32,000 nucleotides of DNA from Raphidiopsis brookii D9 (lineage in GTDB: Bacteria > Cyanobacteriota > Cyanobacteriia > Cyanobacteriales > Nostocaceae). Location of the stretch: positions 90,001-122,000 of the forward strand of contig ACYB01000035.1 of NCBI GenBank assembly GCA_000175855.1. Reading direction: 5' to 3'. The notes beneath the pieces were generated by a model. It was given only the letters and a program-made list of their open reading frames with translations, ran no database searches and was not told where the DNA came from. Below, in pieces: positions 7,627 to 26,030 of the stretch (the stretch's first letter is position 1; every line of letters begins with the position of its first letter). A program made the translations under genes and the position numbers.

Positions 7627-8277
7627 TTAGATTTTATCAGCAACCTGAGCAATGGCCAATGGTAAGATCTGGTGTTCCTGAACTTGGATTCTCGCATGTA
7701 GTGTTTCTGCTGTATCGTTTGGCAATACTGGAACTGCAGCTTGCATCAAAATTGGACCGCTGTCCATTTCTAATCTCAGCAGGTGAACTGTACAACCTGT
7801 TATTTTTACACCTGCTTCTAATGCTTGTTCTACAGCTCTAACACCTTTAAAACTGGGCAATAAACTGGGGTGAATATTAATAATGTGATTGGGAAAAGCA
7901 TCTATCAGTTCTTGGGTAACTAAACGCATCCAACCGGCCATAACTACTAAATCAACTTGATATTGGCGCAGAGTGCTGACAATTTCCCGATCCAAATCTT
8001 CCCGCTTTTTATAATGACGATGATTGAGTAATATTGCTTCTACTCCATGATTGAGAGCCCTTTCTGCTGCTTTTGCTAGGGGGTTATTATAAATTAAAAC
8101 TTGAATTTGGGCATTAAGATCCCCCGATTTGATTGCTTGAGCAACCACCTCAAAATTGCTCCCATTCCCAGAGGCCATGACTCCTAATTTTACAGGTTTT
8201 ATGTCATGGGACTGGTAACCTGAAACATCAGGGGAAATTAGACTAGAGGTGCTATTCATGGAGTAAGATTGAATCAT
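7627..8277 (-). CDS. purN: Phosphoribosylglycinamide formyltransferase
   Basis: KLGVMASGNGSNFE, DLVVMAGWMRL, INIHPSLLPSFKG and GCTVH are PurN hallmarks. Confidence 0.9.
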   Translation of the reverse strand: MIQSYSMNSTSSLISPDVSGYQSHDIKPVKLGVMASGNGSNFEVVAQAIKSGDLNAQIQVLIYNNPLAKAAERALNHGVEAILLNHRHYKKREDLDREIVSTLRQYQVDLVVMAGWMRLVTQELIDAFPNHIINIHPSLLPSFKGVRAVEQALEAGVKITGCTVHLLRLEMDSGPILMQAAVPVLPNDTAETLHARIQVQEHQILPLAIAQVADKI

Positions 8278-8295
8278 AAAGTTACTGATATTCTC

Positions 8296-9771
8296 TTACA
8301 AACTTGGGGAAGACGCTAATTCTGGAGGAACATCTTCACCATAGCTGTAAATTTCAATTCCTAATTTAGAAGCTATGGAATTGGCACTGGGGTGAACCAT
8401 GGGTGAAATTACAATCTTTCTCGTAGCTTGTCTTTGATGTTGTTGCTGATAAAAGTCTACTTTCCGGTAAAAAGTGTACAAGTCACCTTTGCTTAGGGAT
8501 GATTTAATCTCACAAATGATTAGTTGCCCATTTCGTATAATCAAATCTAGTTCTACTTGGTCTGGTCTACCAAATACTATTCCCTGATCATCATACTCGA
8601 CTATATTCAAAACTTCCACGCCAAAAGACTCTTCTAAGATTGCCTTTAACCCATTACGAAATGAGGACTCAGAACATAAACCCCACCGTGCACCGAGTCC
8701 GCTAATACCAACTTCATGCTTACGACTCATACGCTCTATTGCTGCGATAACTTGGTCAAATTCCCGTTTGTTTTCATCCCACTTACAAGCTTGCTCCTGA
8801 CGGTCAAGTTCCATTTCCCGTTTGTTTTCATCCCACTTACGAGCTTGCTCCTGACGGTCAAGTTCCATTTCCCGTTTGTTTTCATCCCACTTACGAGCTT
8901 GCTCCTGACGGTCAAGTTCCATTTCCTGTTTGTTTTCATCCCACTTACGAGCTTGCTCCTGACGGTCAAGTTCCATTTCCCGTTTGTTTTCATCCCACTT
9001 ACGAGCTTGCTCCTGACGGTCAAGTTCCATTTCCCGTTTGTTTTCATCCCACTTACGAGCTTGCTCCTGACGGTCAAGTTCCATTTCCCGTTTGTTTTCA
9101 TCCCACTTACGAGCTTGCTCCTGACGGTCAAGTTCCATTTGGGTGATGACCCGGTCAAATTCCTGTTTGTTTTCATCCCACTTACGAGCTTGCTCCTGAC
9201 GGTCAAGTTCCATTTCCCGTTTGTTTTCATCCCACTTGCGAGCTTGCTCCTGACGGTCAAGTTCCATTTCCCGTTTGTTTTCATCCCACTTGCGAGCTTG
9301 CTCCTGACGGTCAAGTTCCATTTCCCGTTTGTTTTCATCCCACTTACGAGCTTGCTCCTGACGGTCAAGCTCCATTTGGGTGATGACCCGGTCAAATTCC
9401 TGTTTGTTTTCATCCCACTTGCGAGCTTGCTCCTGACGGTCAAGTTCCATTTGGGTGATGACCCGGTCAAATTCCTGTTTGTTTTCATCCCACTTACGAG
9501 CTTGCTCCTGACGGTCAAGTTCCATTTGGGTGATGACCCGGTCAAATTCCTGTTTGTTTTCATCCCACTTACGAGACTGCTCTTCCCTATCCCGTCGTAT
9601 TTCCCCTAATACTAAATCAAAGTGACTTTCCGTCTCCAAGCTTCCAGCAAAATAGCTGGAAATTGCCCTGACTAGTAAATTCCGCATTTCTACGTCTTCA
9701 TTTACTAATACAGGTAACTGTTGTTTTAGCAGCTGTTTAAAATCCATATCATTCATAGTTATGATATGCAC
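8296..9771 (-). CDS. DUF3782-type protein with a C-terminal PD-(D/E)xK-like nuclease fold and a massively expanded charged helical repeat
   Basis: The C-terminus (GARWGLCSESSFRNGLKAILEESFG...GRPDQVELDLIIRNGQLIICEIKSSLSKGDLYTF) matches my memory of the cyanobacterial DUF3782/PD-(D/E)xK family (D...ExK-like ELD...EIK). The middle holds 13 copies plus 1 degenerate copy of MELDRQEQARKWDENK(RE or QEFDRVITQ). Confidence 0.7.
   Translation of the reverse strand: MHIITMNDMDFKQLLKQQLPVLVNEDVEMRNLLVRAISSYFAGSLETESHFDLVLGEIRRDREEQSRKWDENKQEFDRVITQMELDRQEQARKWDENKQEFDRVITQMELDRQEQARKWDENKQEFDRVITQMELDRQEQARKWDENKREMELDRQEQARKWDENKREMELDRQEQARKWDENKREMELDRQEQARKWDENKQEFDRVITQMELDRQEQARKWDENKREMELDRQEQARKWDENKREMELDRQEQARKWDENKREMELDRQEQARKWDENKQEMELDRQEQARKWDENKREMELDRQEQARKWDENKREMELDRQEQACKWDENKREFDQVIAAIERMSRKHEVGISGLGARWGLCSESSFRNGLKAILEESFGVEVLNIVEYDDQGIVFGRPDQVELDLIIRNGQLIICEIKSSLSKGDLYTFYRKVDFYQQQHQRQATRKIVISPMVHPSANSIASKLGIEIYSYGEDVPPELASSPSL
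8740..9600. repeat. In-frame tandem array of 54-bp and 75-bp units (13 near-identical copies at 8761-9525, with degenerate copies at both flanks)
   Basis: I located the unit boundaries by hand. The order is 7x54 bp (8761-9138), 75 bp (9139-9213), 3x54 bp (9214-9375) and 2x75 bp (9376-9525). The 75-bp unit is the 54-bp unit plus ttgggtgatgacccggtcaaa. Only a handful of single-base differences exist, e.g. acaagc, tgcgagc, tcctgtt, aagctcc. Confidence 0.95.
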
Positions 9772-9946
9772 AAGTCTTGACTACAGATACCATTGTACCA
9801 CAGGTCATAAAGATTTGATACTTCTTCTAAAATTCTTTTCGAGAAAAGATGAAAATGGCGATCGCCAACTGCATAAAAACTCATTGGAGATGGTTGTTAC
9901 GTGTTAATTGATGGGATGGTAATTATGAAGTATCTGTGCTTTTTTT

Positions 9947-10958
9947 CTACTGTTGTGCTGGTGGTGAACCTCTAAAAAATTTCGTTTTGGGATCGCACTT
10001 AATTTTCGCCTTTACATTAGAGTTGTCAGTGGTGTACTCAGAAGCAATTGGTTCAATGTAACAAGATTTACGTAAATAAAATCCCTTTTTACTATCAGTT
10101 GGTCCCTGCCAAATACTGAGAAGATCTAATCGGTAACCTGATTTGATATTAACCACACGAGGTTCAATTTTCCATAGTCCCTTCTCTTCAAATTTTTGCA
10201 GGTTTTTATTAATAATTATTTTTCCCAAGTTATCCACCTGTTGATTTGCCTCCAATAGCCACCTTTCCGCTTCTGACCAGGGTCTATTCGTGATTTGCTG
10301 TAGGATTAAAGGTTCAATTCTATTTAAAATTACATTGCCTGGTTCTGGTTTGTTTGCTTTTGGTTCAAATTTTAATTACAAAATTGCTGCGTTGAAAACT
10401 CTGTGCAGATAAACTGGGATATTCTTTTAACCATTTATCTGTGACAAAGTTAAATTGTAACCAGCAACTAATTAACATTGACCAACTTAGCAGCAAAATG
10501 ATTTTTTGTCTGACTTCCAATTTAGGAAGAGTCGCTTTTGGCGATATACCATTCCCCGTAAAAAACTGTGGTAATGCTGTAATTATGGCAGCAATTGTGG
10601 GCCATAAAACTATGGTTCTGACCGTGATTGTGTTTTCTCCATGTCCAAAGACAAATACACTAAATATAAATCCTGTCAACAAAGCACCCACAGGCATAAA
10701 AGTTCCTGGAATTCTTACGGGAGAATCTGTTGTGTACCAAGCGGTTCCGGCGAATAAAAATATCCAACCTGTAAAAGCAATAATATCTTTGATTATACCC
10801 GTGGCTAGGGATGAAATTCCCCAGGAGAAAACACTTAGATATATAAATGTCTGCCACGAGAAAGATCTGGGGGGCATTAATAGTTTCTGAATGCCTAAAA
10901 ACAGATCTTTAATAAATGTGAATAACTGGATGATTTCTTTCAATAATGGAAAGTTCAT
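9947..10958 (-). pseudogene. fraD: FraD-like septal membrane protein (5 TM plus a soluble C-terminal domain), split by a +1 frameshift at about 10370
   Basis: ORF 10365-10958 encodes about 5 TM helices and stops at TGA 10365-10367. A second frame is open from 10375 down to 9947 with no start codon until a TTG at 10255. Removing one T from TTTT 10370-10373 fuses them into 336 aa. It sits immediately downstream of a fraC-like gene. The FraD identity rests on size, topology, synteny and memory only. Confidence 0.45.
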
Positions 10959-24955: not shown

Positions 24956-26030
24956 ATGGCAACTAACACAGCGGATACTGGCAAACAAAAAGCACTGAGT
25001 ATGGTGCTAAACCAAATTGAGCGCAGCTTTGGTAAAGGAGCAATTATGCGTTTGGGTGATGCTACCCGAATGCGAGTAGAAACCATTTCTACCGGAGCAC
25101 TAACCCTGGATTTGGCCTTGGGTGGTGGTTTACCCAAAGGGAGAGTCATAGAAATCTATGGACCAGAAAGTTCCGGTAAAACCACTGTGGCCCTCCATGC
25201 AATTGCGGAAGTACAAAGAAATGGGGGTATAGCAGCTTTCGTGGATGCAGAACACGCTCTGGATCCTACCTATGCAGGTGCATTGGGTGTGGATATTGAA
25301 AACCTGCTCGTTTCCCAACCGGACACTGGTGAAGCTGGTTTGGAAATAGTTGATCAGTTAGTACGCTCCGCTGCAGTTGATATAGTAGTAATTGACTCTG
25401 TAGCTGCCCTAGTACCTCGTGCTGAAATAGAAGGGGATATGGGTGATGCCCACGTGGGTTTACAAGCTAGATTGATGAGTCAGGCTTTGCGTAAAATTAC
25501 TGGTAACATTGGTAAATCCGGTTGCACAGTTATTTTTATTAACCAATTACGTCAAAAAATAGGAGTTACCTATGGTAGTCCAGAAACTACCACAGGTGGT
25601 AACGCCCTAAAATTTTATGCTTCTGTAAGATTAGATATCCGCCGAATTCAAACACTCAAAAAAGGTTCCGATGAATTTGGTAATCGGGTTAAGGTTAAGG
25701 TAGCAAAAAATAAAAGTTGCACCACCCTTTAGAGTAGCTGAATTTGACATTATATTTGGTAAAGGAGTTTCAACCCTGGGTTGCTTAGTAGACCTAGCAG
25801 AAGAAACAGGAGTGCTAATTAGAAAAGGTGCATGGTATAGTCATAACGGAGAAAATATTTCCCAAGGTAGAGATAATGCCATCAAATACCTGGAAGAGAA
25901 ATCTGATTTTGCCGAAAAAATTAAAGAGCAGGTACGTGCTAAACTAGACCAGGGGGCGTTAGTTTCCGCCAATTCTGTGGCTAAGTCCACTGAAGAGGAA
26001 GTAGAGGAGGAAATAGAAGAGGAAGAATAA
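24956..26030 (+). pseudogene. recA: Recombinase RecA, reading frame broken by one extra A at 25712-25715
   Basis: The N-terminal 258 aa (GPESSGKTT, the L1/L2 regions) end ...[14 protein letters not shown]. The next frame continues [51 protein letters not shown]... to 26030. The canonical junction is KNKVAPPF. The span is 1075 nt, i.e. 3n+1. Confidence 0.9.

What the first reader, a model, noticed from the sequence alone, without database searches (positions are those of the whole stretch)
8740..9600. Recent in-frame 54/75-bp tandem expansion turns a DUF3782/PD-(D/E)xK protein linker into a helix of about 290 residues
Thirteen nearly identical DNA units (10 of 54 bp and 3 of 75 bp), plus degenerate flanking copies, encode MELDRQEQARKWDENK(RE|QEFDRVITQ). 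As I remember this cyanobacterial family, members carry only one or two EQ.RKW(D/E)EN-like segments between the N-terminal domain and the C-terminal nuclease-like fold. So this copy appears to have amplified one helical module about 14-fold.

The near-perfect nucleotide identity, with only a few point differences, suggests the expansion is recent or is homogenised by recombination. Both unit lengths are multiples of 3, so gain or loss of units preserves the frame and would create length variants. The E/R/K/Q/D-rich composition resembles single-alpha-helix or coiled-coil spacers. At 1.5 A per residue, about 290 residues would span roughly 40 nm.

A ruler-like or length-variable spacer attached to a nuclease-fold domain is unusual, and I do not know of a description of it.
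Basis: partly seen in the sequence, partly recalled or inferred. Interest (0 to 1): 0.7.

Follow-up and report, generated by a model that had tools for sequence, protein, structure and literature searches.

The report
Variable-length helical stalk in a nuclease
A cyanobacterial gene for a nuclease-like protein of unknown function has a long helical stalk built from 14 near-identical repeat modules; stalk-plus-nuclease proteins of this family were already described, and related strains carry 4 to 12 modules, so this is the longest version of a known, naturally length-variable protein.

Summary
Window 8761-9525 holds 13 near-identical in-frame units (3 of 75 bp, 10 of 54 bp), preceded by a degenerate 72-bp unit. 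They lie in a minus-strand gene (8296-9756) encoding DUF3782 + PDDEXK_10. Its C-terminal domain is a NucS/EndoMS-like PD-(D/E)xK fold with an intact E..D..ExK motif.

- The family does not normally carry one or two such segments. Long, internally repetitive stalks are the rule across phyla.
- Helical/coiled-coil stalks on this nuclease family were already described in 2007 and 2016.

What holds up, and what I did not find in the literature searched:
- In Cylindrospermopsis/Raphidiopsis the array is a true VNTR. Complete alleles carry 4, 5, 6, 7, 8, 9, 10, 11 and 12 modules; this window has 14, the longest.
- Units are homogenised within strains, while both terminal domains are under purifying selection.
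- Every length change is 7, 18 (7+11) or 25 (7+7+11) residues. The same DNA periods (21, 33, 54, 75 bp) recur independently in distant relatives. This keeps a Trp/Met/Phe stripe on one helix face, which favours a coiled coil over a single alpha-helix.

Function remains unknown. Copy number needs confirmation with spanning reads.

The parts
8296..9756 (-). Gene for a 486-aa DUF3782/PDDEXK_10 protein. The mechanical ORF extends to a GTG at 9771. The stop codon is 8296-8298.
   Evidence: ORF list. Orthologues start MNDMDF/MTINDMDF. Pfam hits. Synteny fraC-fraD-(fraE)-gene-purN-PGM is conserved in L001, L003 and L004. dN/dS is 0.1-0.2 in both terminal domains.
9643..9756 (-). N-terminal module conserved across the family (residues 1-38, two short helices, motif ..ELPxL..D.E.R..).
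   Evidence: AF2 helices 3-20 and 22-33. Nearly invariant L14, P15 and D21 in alignment A2. No Pfam, NCBIfam or PHROG match.
8716..9642 (-). Whole predicted helical stalk (residues 39-347). If it were one continuous helix it would be about 46 nm at 0.15 nm per residue.
   Evidence: AF2 full-length model: helices 39-203 and 211-347 with pLDDT about 90, and a low-confidence break at 188-214. One Gly and no Pro in the stalk.
9526..9597 (-). Degenerate first unit (72 bp, RRDREEQSRKWDENKQEFDRVITQ), preceded by the family-wide junction motif ETESxFD..L.E.
   Evidence: R57 is invariant, and D56 and E58 are at least 90% conserved in A2.
8761..9525 (-). Array of 13 near-identical units. Three are 75 bp (25 aa = 7+7+11) and ten are 54 bp (18 aa = 7+11). 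Each is centred on one Trp.
   Evidence: TRF. Unit parse. Mean core identity 98.6%. W-W spacings are 25,25,25,18,18,18,25,18,18,18,18,18,18.
8923..9452 (-). Higher-order 237-bp period (one 75-bp unit plus three 54-bp units), 2.2 copies. The array seems to have grown partly by duplication of four-unit blocks. Unit 11 (8923-8976) looks like a 75-bp unit that lost one 21-bp heptad.
   Evidence: TRF: 237-bp period, 98% matches, score 1032. Unit 11 ends AAACAGGAA like the 75-bp units. The block-growth reading is inference.
8563..8796 (-). Pfam DUF3782 match. It covers the last repeat unit, the end of the stalk helix, the invariant GxRWG motif (8680-8694) and the first helix and strands of the nuclease fold, including motif I E363 (8668-8670).
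   Evidence: profile positions 1-78 of 78. Invariant G355, R357, W358 and G359; E363 at least 90% conserved. Coordinates verified.
8353..8559 (-). Pfam PDDEXK_10 match, the catalytic core. It contains E402 (8551-8553), D404 (8545-8547), E416 (8509-8511) and K418 (8503-8505), which form the ..ELD..(x11)..ExK motif.
   Evidence: E402, D404 and E416 are invariant and K418 is at least 90% conserved. The AF2 domain core has pLDDT 88-97 with a helix, three strands, helix, strand, helix, strand order. The best Foldseek PDB matches are NucS 2vld and EndoMS 5gkj/5gke.

Best explanation
The feature is a coding VNTR (variable-number tandem repeat) inside the helical stalk of a stand-alone DUF3782/PDDEXK_10 protein.

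Shown:
- The protein has a small conserved N-terminal two-helix module, a stalk of about 310 residues predicted helical, and a C-terminal NucS/EndoMS-like PD-(D/E)xK domain with an intact E..D..ExK site.
- The stalk is built from Trp-centred modules of 18 residues (7+11) or 25 residues (7+7+11).
- Module number varies from 4 to 14 among Cylindrospermopsis/Raphidiopsis strains. This window carries the longest allele.
- Units are homogenised within each strain.
- Both terminal domains are under purifying selection.

Inferred:
- The array grows and shrinks by unequal recombination or replication slippage between 54/75-bp units, partly in four-unit blocks.
- Only changes of 7, 18 or 25 residues persist. 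Only these keep the Trp/Met/Phe/Ile stripe on one helix face, which I take to be the seam of a homo-oligomeric coiled coil. This matches how the Lupas laboratory described the stalks of this endonuclease family.
- The stalk acts as a rigid oligomerisation and spacer element. It holds the nuclease domains at a distance from the N-terminal module, and each unit adds about 2.7 nm (18 aa) or 3.8 nm (25 aa).
- Stalk length is only loosely constrained, so most of the variation is probably near-neutral.

The enzyme's substrate and cellular role are unknown. The patchy distribution, paralogue clusters and lack of a conserved partner gene fit an accessory, possibly conflict-related nuclease better than a core repair enzyme.
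For: - Array and frame.
- Domains.
- Fold and catalytic residues.
- Orthology by synteny.
- Allele ladder: complete proteins carry 4, 5, 6, 7, 8, 9, 9, 9, 10, 11, 12 and 14 modules, and all W-W spacings are 7, 18 or 25.
- Concerted evolution: within-window unit identity is 98.6%, against flank identities of 96.5%, 95% and 92.5% to other strains. The GAG/GAA synonymous variant is fixed across all units of a strain.
- Purifying selection: dN/dS is 0.12-0.21.
- One-face stripe: M1, W12, A9, F19, I23 and V22 fall within about 90 degrees on a helical wheel at 3.57-3.6 residues per turn.
- Family-wide rule: in 52 independent cluster representatives the W-W spacings are 7 (38%), 11 (19%), 18 (10%), 4, 14, 15 and 25. 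The mean angular offset is 31 degrees, against 90 expected at random.
- Independent recurrence: DNA tandem periods of 21, 33, 54, 75 and 162 bp occur in Thermodesulforhabdus, Thioploca and another genome, with different unit sequences.
- W+7 position: W, L, I and F together make up 58% of residues there.
- Literature: coiled-coil stalks in this family; function unknown with patchy, HGT-like distribution.
- No conserved neighbour genes, and tandem paralogue clusters exist.
- The AF2 monomer folds the array back on itself rather than leaving one free helix. This is weak support for a seam that seeks a partner.
Against: - The seam is sparse. In the 18-residue unit only M1 and W12 (plus A9) are hydrophobic, and the other seam positions are R5, Q8, N15 and K16.
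- Family-wide, the position 3-4 residues after W is mostly Q or N.
- In R. curvata two units have Arg instead of Met at position 1.
- The module EEQNRKW also carries dense i/i+3 and i/i+4 opposite-charge pairs (0.31 and 0.18 per residue), as single alpha-helices do.
- No oligomer prediction or experiment was possible.
- Nuclease activity, expression and any effect of length are untested.
- Copy number in this assembly is not verified by reads.
Confidence: 0.62

Rival explanations
1. Single alpha-helix (ER/K-type) spacer, one of the first reader's two suggestions. The array is a monomeric, salt-bridge-stabilised rod that acts as a length-variable tether between the two end domains.
For: - The stalk is 55% charged and has many i/i+3 and i/i+4 opposite-charge pairs.
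- The family consensus EEQNRKW places E to R and E to K at i+4.
- There is only one hydrophobic residue per heptad, with Q or N at the would-be d position.
- There is no Pro and only one Gly in the stalk.
Against: - E+K+R is only 44% and 25% of residues are hydrophobic or Ala. This is lower in charge and higher in hydrophobicity than classical ER/K helices (my knowledge of that class).
- A Trp conserved across phyla sits at strict 7/11/18/25 spacing on one face. A free rod would not need this.
- The AF2 monomer pairs the two halves of the array.
- A related stalk (Tcar0761 constructs) is an experimentally trimeric coiled coil.
Confidence: 0.2
2. Intramolecular antiparallel hairpin, as in SMC or Rad50 arms. 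The array folds back on itself, bringing the N-terminal module next to the nuclease domain, with the repeat tip distal.
For: - The AF2 full-length monomer model has two helices of similar length (39-203 and 211-347) with a break near the middle of the array.
- The N-terminal module is conserved together with the nuclease domain across the family.
Against: - The break is low-confidence (pLDDT about 42) and lies inside a perfect repeat with no loop-forming residues.
- Monomer AF2 commonly folds long amphipathic helices back on themselves.
- Gain or loss of single units would keep shifting the apex.
- pTM is only 0.33.
Confidence: 0.1
3. The 14-module count is an assembly artefact, an over- or under-count of a shorter or different array.
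For: - Short-read assemblies cannot handle this locus. Two metagenome contigs end inside the array.
- 21 database entries for this protein are truncated, without one or both end anchors; at least nine are annotated 'partial'.
- The longest exact internal repeat is 159 bp.
- The exact protein is not on record elsewhere.
- The window has two homopolymer frameshifts, in fraD and recA, so the sequence is not error-free.
Against: - Large contigs and chromosome-scale records carry 8, 9, 9 and 12 modules. These are C. curvispora (3.9 Mb), Cr2010 CP065936, NIES-932 AP018317 and a 1.3-Mb contig. Fourteen is therefore a modest extension of a continuous ladder.
- A same-lineage metagenome allele has 11 modules (P0273).
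- The array keeps its frame and contains position-specific variants.
- Homopolymer indels are typical of long-read data, and long reads would span 0.8 kb easily (inference).
Confidence: 0.1

Closest known systems
Pfam DUF3782 (PF12644) + PDDEXK_10 (PF07788, formerly DUF1626; COG5493): coiled-coil-stalked prokaryotic endonuclease family of unknown function
   Same: Both Pfam models match above their curated cutoffs. The architecture is the same: an N-terminal helical or coiled-coil region followed by a PD-(D/E)xK domain, as described by Knizewski 2007 and Hartmann 2016. C. raciborskii members were already noted in Steczkiewicz 2012.
   Different: This is the longest stalk among about 270 members inspected. 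The globular domain starts at residue 355, against a maximum of 283 in the unbiased set. Its units are the most nearly identical at DNA level. I found no description of strain-level module-number polymorphism or of the 7/11 Trp-module arithmetic in the papers retrieved.
NucS / EndoMS (archaeal and actinobacterial mismatch- and branched-DNA endonuclease; PDB 2vld, 5gkj, 5gke)
   Same: It is the best structural match to the C-terminal domain (Foldseek E 2e-4 to 1e-3, probability 1.00, 111-117 aligned columns, TM 0.47-0.50 normalised to the query). It shares the PD-(D/E)xK active-site layout. DUF1626 was linked to DUF91 (NucS) by profile methods in 2007.
   Different: Sequence identity is only 16-19%. 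There is no NucS N-terminal domain: this protein's N-terminus is a two-helix module plus stalk. No clamp-binding tail is evident. It is not a member of the family, only a fold relative of the catalytic domain.
Tcar0761 and crenarchaeal DUF3782 stalks (alpha/beta coiled coil, PDB 5APZ)
   Same: They are grouped in the same Pfam entry. They are tandemly repeated stalk modules (14 consecutive MATKDDIAN nonads), and constructs are trimeric in crystals.
   Different: The beta-layer motif [aliphatic]-A-T-K-polar-[DE] is absent from the window protein and from all 147 representatives checked. The periodicities are 7/11/18/25, not 9. This agrees with the published remark that bacterial members lack nonads.
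Type I restriction HsdS central conserved region (e.g. EcoR124I versus EcoR124/3, two or three TAEL repeats)
   Same: From my own knowledge, not tested here: a tandem in-frame repeat in a helical coiled-coil spacer of a nucleic-acid enzyme, where copy number changes a physical distance. This is the best precedent for the 'ruler' idea.
   Different: There the repeat is 4 residues in 2-3 copies, with a proven effect on the length of the DNA-recognition spacer. Here the units are 18/25 residues in 4-14 copies and no known readout exists. The two are not homologous.
Size-variable coiled-coil surface proteins (e.g. streptococcal M proteins) and ER/K single alpha-helices (myosin VI/X)
   Same: From my own knowledge: M proteins change size by intragenic recombination between tandem repeats that keep the heptad register. 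ER/K helices share the charged i/i+4 pattern seen here.
   Different: No signal peptide or membrane segment is evident in the sequence (by eye; no predictor run), so this protein is probably cytoplasmic, and it ends in a nuclease domain, so immune-evasion logic does not apply. Its composition is less charged and more hydrophobic than ER/K helices.

Membership tests
Pfam PF12644 DUF3782 / PF07788 PDDEXK_10 family | Matches to both profile HMMs above the curated gathering scores, in the order DUF3782 then PDDEXK_10. | tested here: met
   89.4 bits against a cutoff of 24.4 (residues 326-403) and 75.4 bits against 21.2 (residues 405-473). 949 homologues at E<=1e-5 were scored; the 120 listed all carry both domains.
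PD-(D/E)xK phosphodiesterase superfamily | Restriction-endonuclease-like core of alpha, three beta strands, alpha, beta. | tested here: met
   AF2 domain model: H31-46, E49-57, E67-76, E79-85, H91-108, E114-118, with core pLDDT 88-97. Top Foldseek hits are the PD-(D/E)xK nucleases NucS and EndoMS, then Can2 and VC1899.
PD-(D/E)xK phosphodiesterase superfamily | Conserved catalytic motif E ... D ... (D/E)xK. | tested here: met
   E363 (at least 90% conserved), E402 and D404 (invariant), E416 (invariant) and K418 (at least 90% conserved) in 71-95 homologues.
PD-(D/E)xK phosphodiesterase superfamily | Metal-dependent nuclease activity. | not testable with these tools
   No member of PF07788 has a reported activity in the papers found.
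NucS / EndoMS | Two-domain protein with the NucS N-terminal DNA-binding and dimerisation domain, plus detectable sequence-family membership. | tested here: not met
   The N-terminus is helical. There is no Pfam or NCBIfam NucS hit. A profile search of PDB sequences finds no NucS. Only the catalytic domain superposes.
Alpha/beta coiled coil (Tcar0761-type nonad stalk) | Nonad or hexad insertions with the beta-layer motif [aliphatic]-A-T-K-polar-[D/E]. | tested here: not met
   Zero motif hits in the window protein and in 147 representatives. The periods are 7/11/18/25.
Canonical or hendecad-containing coiled coil | Repeat lengths that are sums of 7 and 11, with hydrophobic residues confined to one seam. 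| tested here: met
   18=7+11 and 25=7+7+11. The seam M1/W12/A9/F19/I23/V22 lies within about 90 degrees. Family W spacings are 7, 11, 18 and so on. All allele indels are 7, 18 or 25 residues.
Canonical or hendecad-containing coiled coil | Homo-oligomerisation through the seam. | not testable with these tools
   Only monomer AF2 was available. It pairs the two halves of the array, which is suggestive only.
Charged single alpha-helix (ER/K SAH) | Very high E/K/R content with i/i+4 salt-bridge networks and no hydrophobic seam. | tested here: inconclusive
   Salt-bridge pattern present (0.31 and 0.18 pairs per residue at i+3 and i+4). However, E+K+R is 44%, 25% of residues are hydrophobic, and a conserved Trp stripe exists.
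Known anti-phage defence systems (PADLOC) and phage protein families (PHROGs) | Significant match to a defence or phage protein model. | tested here: not met
   PADLOC best E=0.025, a CARF model over the N-terminal module and first repeats. PHROGs best E=0.009, of unknown function and within the repeat.

The most novel reading that the evidence does not exclude
Stalk length is not neutral. The VNTR would be a contingency-type locus that tunes a molecular ruler. Under this reading the N-terminal module recognises a partner or a site, and the NucS-like domains act at a distance set by the number of 2.7/3.8-nm modules. Co-occurring bloom strains carrying 4 to 14 modules would then differ in the reach or cut spacing of an accessory, possibly defence-related, nuclease. 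This would be a much larger-scale analogue of the TAEL-repeat ruler of type I HsdS. The independent re-invention of 54- and 75-bp units in distant phyla would then reflect selection for evolvable length.
Probability: 0.1. Interest if true: 0.7.

Novelty: new member of a known kind. Interest (0 to 1): 0.35.

Why it matters
1. It is a natural allelic series: 4 to 14 modules, a stalk of about 18 to 47 nm if extended, on an otherwise conserved nuclease under purifying selection. Such a series could be used to ask whether stalk length matters in the uncharacterised DUF3782/PDDEXK_10 family.
2. The strict 7/18/25-residue arithmetic recurs independently as 21/33/54/75-bp DNA periods in distant phyla. 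This is a clean example of protein-structure phase constraining how a coding VNTR can evolve.
3. The locus is a potential high-resolution strain marker for bloom-forming Cylindrospermopsis/Raphidiopsis.
4. It is a practical warning. At least 21 database entries for this protein are truncated, many of them annotated 'partial', and the two metagenome contigs recovered here end inside the array.

None of this changes the picture of a known family, and the function remains unknown.

Tried and rejected
- Exact-protein look-up of the window product: not on record.
- Two scans of genome contigs, one with protein patterns and one with a degenerate unit-core DNA pattern, returned nothing usable. The source organism was therefore not named directly. 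It is placed in Cylindrospermopsis/Raphidiopsis from 92-97% flank identity.
- NCBIfam, PADLOC and PHROGs gave no meaningful match.
- A profile search of PDB sequences gave only low-complexity helical hits (apolipoprotein A-I, KMP-11; E>=0.03). I reject these as compositional.
- A Foldseek search with the full-length model returned only the nuclease-domain matches, so it said nothing about stalk geometry.
- The promoter and terminator scan was not above shuffled expectation and found no terminator before purN.
- I looked for a conserved partner gene in five unrelated genomes and found none.
- I considered lipid-binding amphipathic 11-mer repeats (apolipoprotein- or LEA-like) and rejected them because the hydrophobic face is only one residue wide.
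- I considered gene decay and rejected it because of the dN/dS values and the intact frame in 12 complete alleles.
- Literature searches for Cylindrospermopsis with tandem repeat and coiled coil, and for length-variable stalk nucleases, returned nothing.
Full report
**1. Observation**

Tandem Repeats Finder reports a 54-bp period at 8761-9140 (7.0 copies, 99% matches). It also reports a 75-bp variant and a 237-bp higher-order period at 8923-9452 (98% matches). Nothing else in the 32-kb window is tandemly repeated.

The array lies in a minus-strand ORF, 8296-9771. Orthologues begin MNDMDF or MTINDMDF, so the real start is probably the ATG at 9756, giving 486 aa.

My parse gives a degenerate 72-bp unit at 9526-9597, followed by 13 units that start with MELDRQEQARKWDENK at 8761-9525. 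Three of these are 75 bp (ending QEFDRVITQ) and ten are 54 bp (ending RE, or QE in one). The 48-nt cores average 98.6% identity.

Pfam confirms DUF3782 (E 1.8e-25) and PDDEXK_10 (E 3.3e-21), both well above their cutoffs. The DUF3782 model begins inside the last repeat unit, so the repeat is the stalk part of that model.

**2. The protein**

An AF2 model of the C-terminal 154 residues, built on a 95-sequence alignment, has a core pLDDT of 88-97. Its secondary-structure order is helix, three strands, helix, strand, helix, strand.

The best solved-structure matches are the archaeal endonucleases NucS (2vld) and EndoMS (5gkj, 5gke). These have E about 1e-3, probability 1.00 and TM 0.47-0.50. Can2- and Card1-type nuclease domains follow, and the full-length model reproduces this ranking.

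E402, D404 and E416 are invariant, and K418 and E363 are at least 90% conserved. The E..D..ExK site is therefore intact.

The full-length AF2 model (pLDDT 79) has two short N-terminal helices (3-20 and 22-33). It then has helices 39-203 and 211-347 at pLDDT about 90, separated by a low-confidence break in the middle of the array.

The N-terminal module matches nothing in Pfam, NCBIfam or PHROGs, and the whole protein has no meaningful PADLOC match.

**3.

I searched 1.84 billion cluster representatives with the C-terminal domain only, so that the search was not biased towards repeats. It gave 776 relatives.

Among 108 relatives that carry the GxRWG anchor, the anchor lies anywhere from residue 8 to 283, with a median of about 150. 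Most of these N-terminal regions are visibly built of lineage-specific tandem modules, very often containing (R/K)KW(D/E)E. Long repetitive stalks are thus the norm. Here the anchor is at residue 355, the longest seen but on a continuum.

The architecture is already in the literature:
- Knizewski et al. 2007 assigned DUF1626 (PF07788, COG5493) to the PD-(D/E)xK superfamily and linked it to DUF91/NucS and Hjc/Hje. They noted that most members have an N-terminal, mainly coiled-coil region (PMC1913061).
- Steczkiewicz et al. 2012 list the function as unknown, with a patchy, HGT-like distribution, and mention the C. raciborskii clade (PMC3424549).
- Hartmann et al. 2016 describe the N-terminal coiled-coil stalks of this endonuclease family, which Pfam groups as DUF3782. 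They solved the trimeric nonad stalk of Tcar0761 and remark that bacterial members lack nonads (PMC4786415).

I confirmed that last remark. The beta-layer motif is absent from the window protein and from all 147 representatives.

**4. Orthologues: a real VNTR**

Loci from a lake metagenome (L001), C. raciborskii Cr2010 (L003) and R. curvata NIES-932 (L004) share the order HisK-cobO-fraC-fraD-(fraE)-gene-purN-PGM-Ham1-DUF4231. Their flanks are 96.5%, 95% and 92.5% identical to the window.

Counting Trp-centred modules in all available complete proteins gives 4, 5, 6, 7, 8, 9, 9, 9, 10, 11 and 12, and 14 in the window. The nearest outgroup, Chrysosporum, has 4 and is not syntenic.

Alleles with 5 and 11 modules share the window's exact C-terminus, so large differences arise within one sub-lineage.

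All units of a strain share strain-specific synonymous states: GAG in the window and L001, GAA in L003 and L004. Within-array identity (98.6%) exceeds between-strain flank identity.

The terminal domains show dN/dS of 0.12-0.21, so the gene is maintained.

**5. Structural arithmetic**

Every W-W spacing in every allele is 7, 18 or 25 residues. The 75-bp and 54-bp units differ by exactly one heptad (FDRVITQ). All other alleles have an extra heptad (EQTGKWN) in the last unit that the window lacks, and NIES-932 has an extra DEQSRKW in the first unit.

On a helical wheel at 3.57-3.6 residues per turn, M1, W12, A9, F19, I23 and V22 fall on one face. Only L3 lies opposite.

Across 52 independent representatives, W-W spacings are 7 (38%), 11 (19%), 18 (10%), 4, 14, 15 and 25. 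The mean angular offset is 31 degrees, against 90 expected at random. At position W+7, W, L, I and F together account for 58% of residues.

DNA-level tandem periods of 54 and 162 bp (Thermodesulforhabdus), 21/33/75 bp (Thioploca) and 21/33/54/75 bp (a paralogue cluster in another genome) recur with unrelated unit sequences. The 54- and 75-bp unit sizes are therefore not accidents of this genome. They follow from heptad-plus-hendecad building blocks that keep a Trp stripe in phase.

This, together with the published trimeric coiled coil of a related stalk, makes a coiled coil the best reading.

A single alpha-helix is not excluded. The seam is sparse, Q or N occupies the would-be d position, and the module EEQNRKW carries an ER/K-like salt-bridge pattern.

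**6. Mechanism**

Shown:
- The gene carries a coding VNTR in its stalk.
- The nuclease site is intact.
- The end domains are under purifying selection.
- Only in-phase length changes are seen.

Inferred:
- Unequal recombination or slippage between units, partly in 237-bp four-unit blocks, drives the size changes.
- Selection removes out-of-phase variants.
- The stalk is an oligomerising spacer whose length is loosely constrained.

The cellular role is unknown. There is no conserved partner gene, and paralogue clusters exist elsewhere. Together with the patchy distribution, this points to an accessory nuclease.

The gene lies 18 bp upstream of purN with no terminator-like site between them, so co-transcription is plausible.

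**7. Reliability of the copy number**

Evidence that the locus is hard to assemble:
- Both metagenome contigs found with the unit pattern end inside the array.
- 21 database entries for this protein are truncated, lacking one or both end anchors.
- The longest exact internal repeat is 159 bp.

Evidence that 14 modules is credible:
- The window carries homopolymer frameshifts in fraD and recA. This suggests a long-read assembly, and long reads would span 0.8 kb (inference).
- Large contigs and chromosome-scale records already show 8 to 12 modules.

I rate an artefact as unlikely, at about 0.1. Only spanning reads can settle it.

**8. Verdict**

The finding is still the extreme allele of a known, already described stalk-plus-nuclease family of unknown function. 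It is not a new kind of system.

The parts I did not find in the papers retrieved are the strain-level module ladder and the 7/11 Trp-module rule. Interest is moderate to low, at 0.35.

Noticed in passing
window 24956-26030 (+), shift near 25705-25735: recA is split by a frameshift at an A-run (GCAAAAAATAAAAGTTGCA). The ORF stops after 258 aa, and canonical RecA sequence ([18 protein letters not shown]...EEEE*) continues in the +1 frame. In an essential gene this looks like a homopolymer sequencing error, which bears on assembly type and quality.
   Followed up: partly
window 9947-10958 (-), extra A near 10373: fraD (DUF5357, 336 aa in relatives) is split into two ORFs by one extra A relative to L001. 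This is either a second homopolymer error or real decay of a filament-integrity gene.
   Followed up: partly
window about 9840-9885 (-); compare L003 3158-3937 and L004 3159-3938: fraE (ABC2_membrane, 259 aa) sits between fraD and the nuclease gene in C. raciborskii Cr2010 and R. curvata. It is deleted in this window and in L001. Only the last codons (LAIAIFIFSRKEF*) remain.
   Followed up: partly
L011 5001-7003 versus window 7627-9756: The Cylindrospermopsis gene lies 18 bp upstream of purN. The non-syntenic Chrysosporum relative lies 12 bp from purT, in convergent orientation. Both neighbours are GAR transformylases. This is probably coincidence, since four other genomes show no pur neighbour.
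   Followed up: partly
L008 4900-9087 (also L007): One genome carries three or four DUF3782/PDDEXK_10 paralogues in tandem (309, 288, 312 and 182 aa). Their stalk lengths differ, and 21/33/54/75-bp repeats occur within this stretch.
   Followed up: partly
window 8785-8787 and 8761-8814 (-): The last unit has a unique CGT to TGT change (Arg to Cys, QEQACKW). It also lacks the heptad EQTGKWN that all other alleles have before NENRQEFD. The array sequence seems to have converted the formerly degenerate terminal unit. The single-base change could be a sequencing error.
   Followed up: no
window 8716-9609 (+) and 8736-9563 (-): Two long stop-free ORFs (297 and 275 aa) in other frames of the array are by-products of the repeat. 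Homology supports only the 8296-9756 (-) frame.
   Followed up: yes
P0140 and P0169 (representatives): A few family members have unrelated globular N-terminal regions instead of the usual module plus stalk. P0140, for example, starts with a sequence resembling the N-terminus of an aminoacyl-tRNA synthetase. These may be fusions or mis-assemblies.
   Followed up: no
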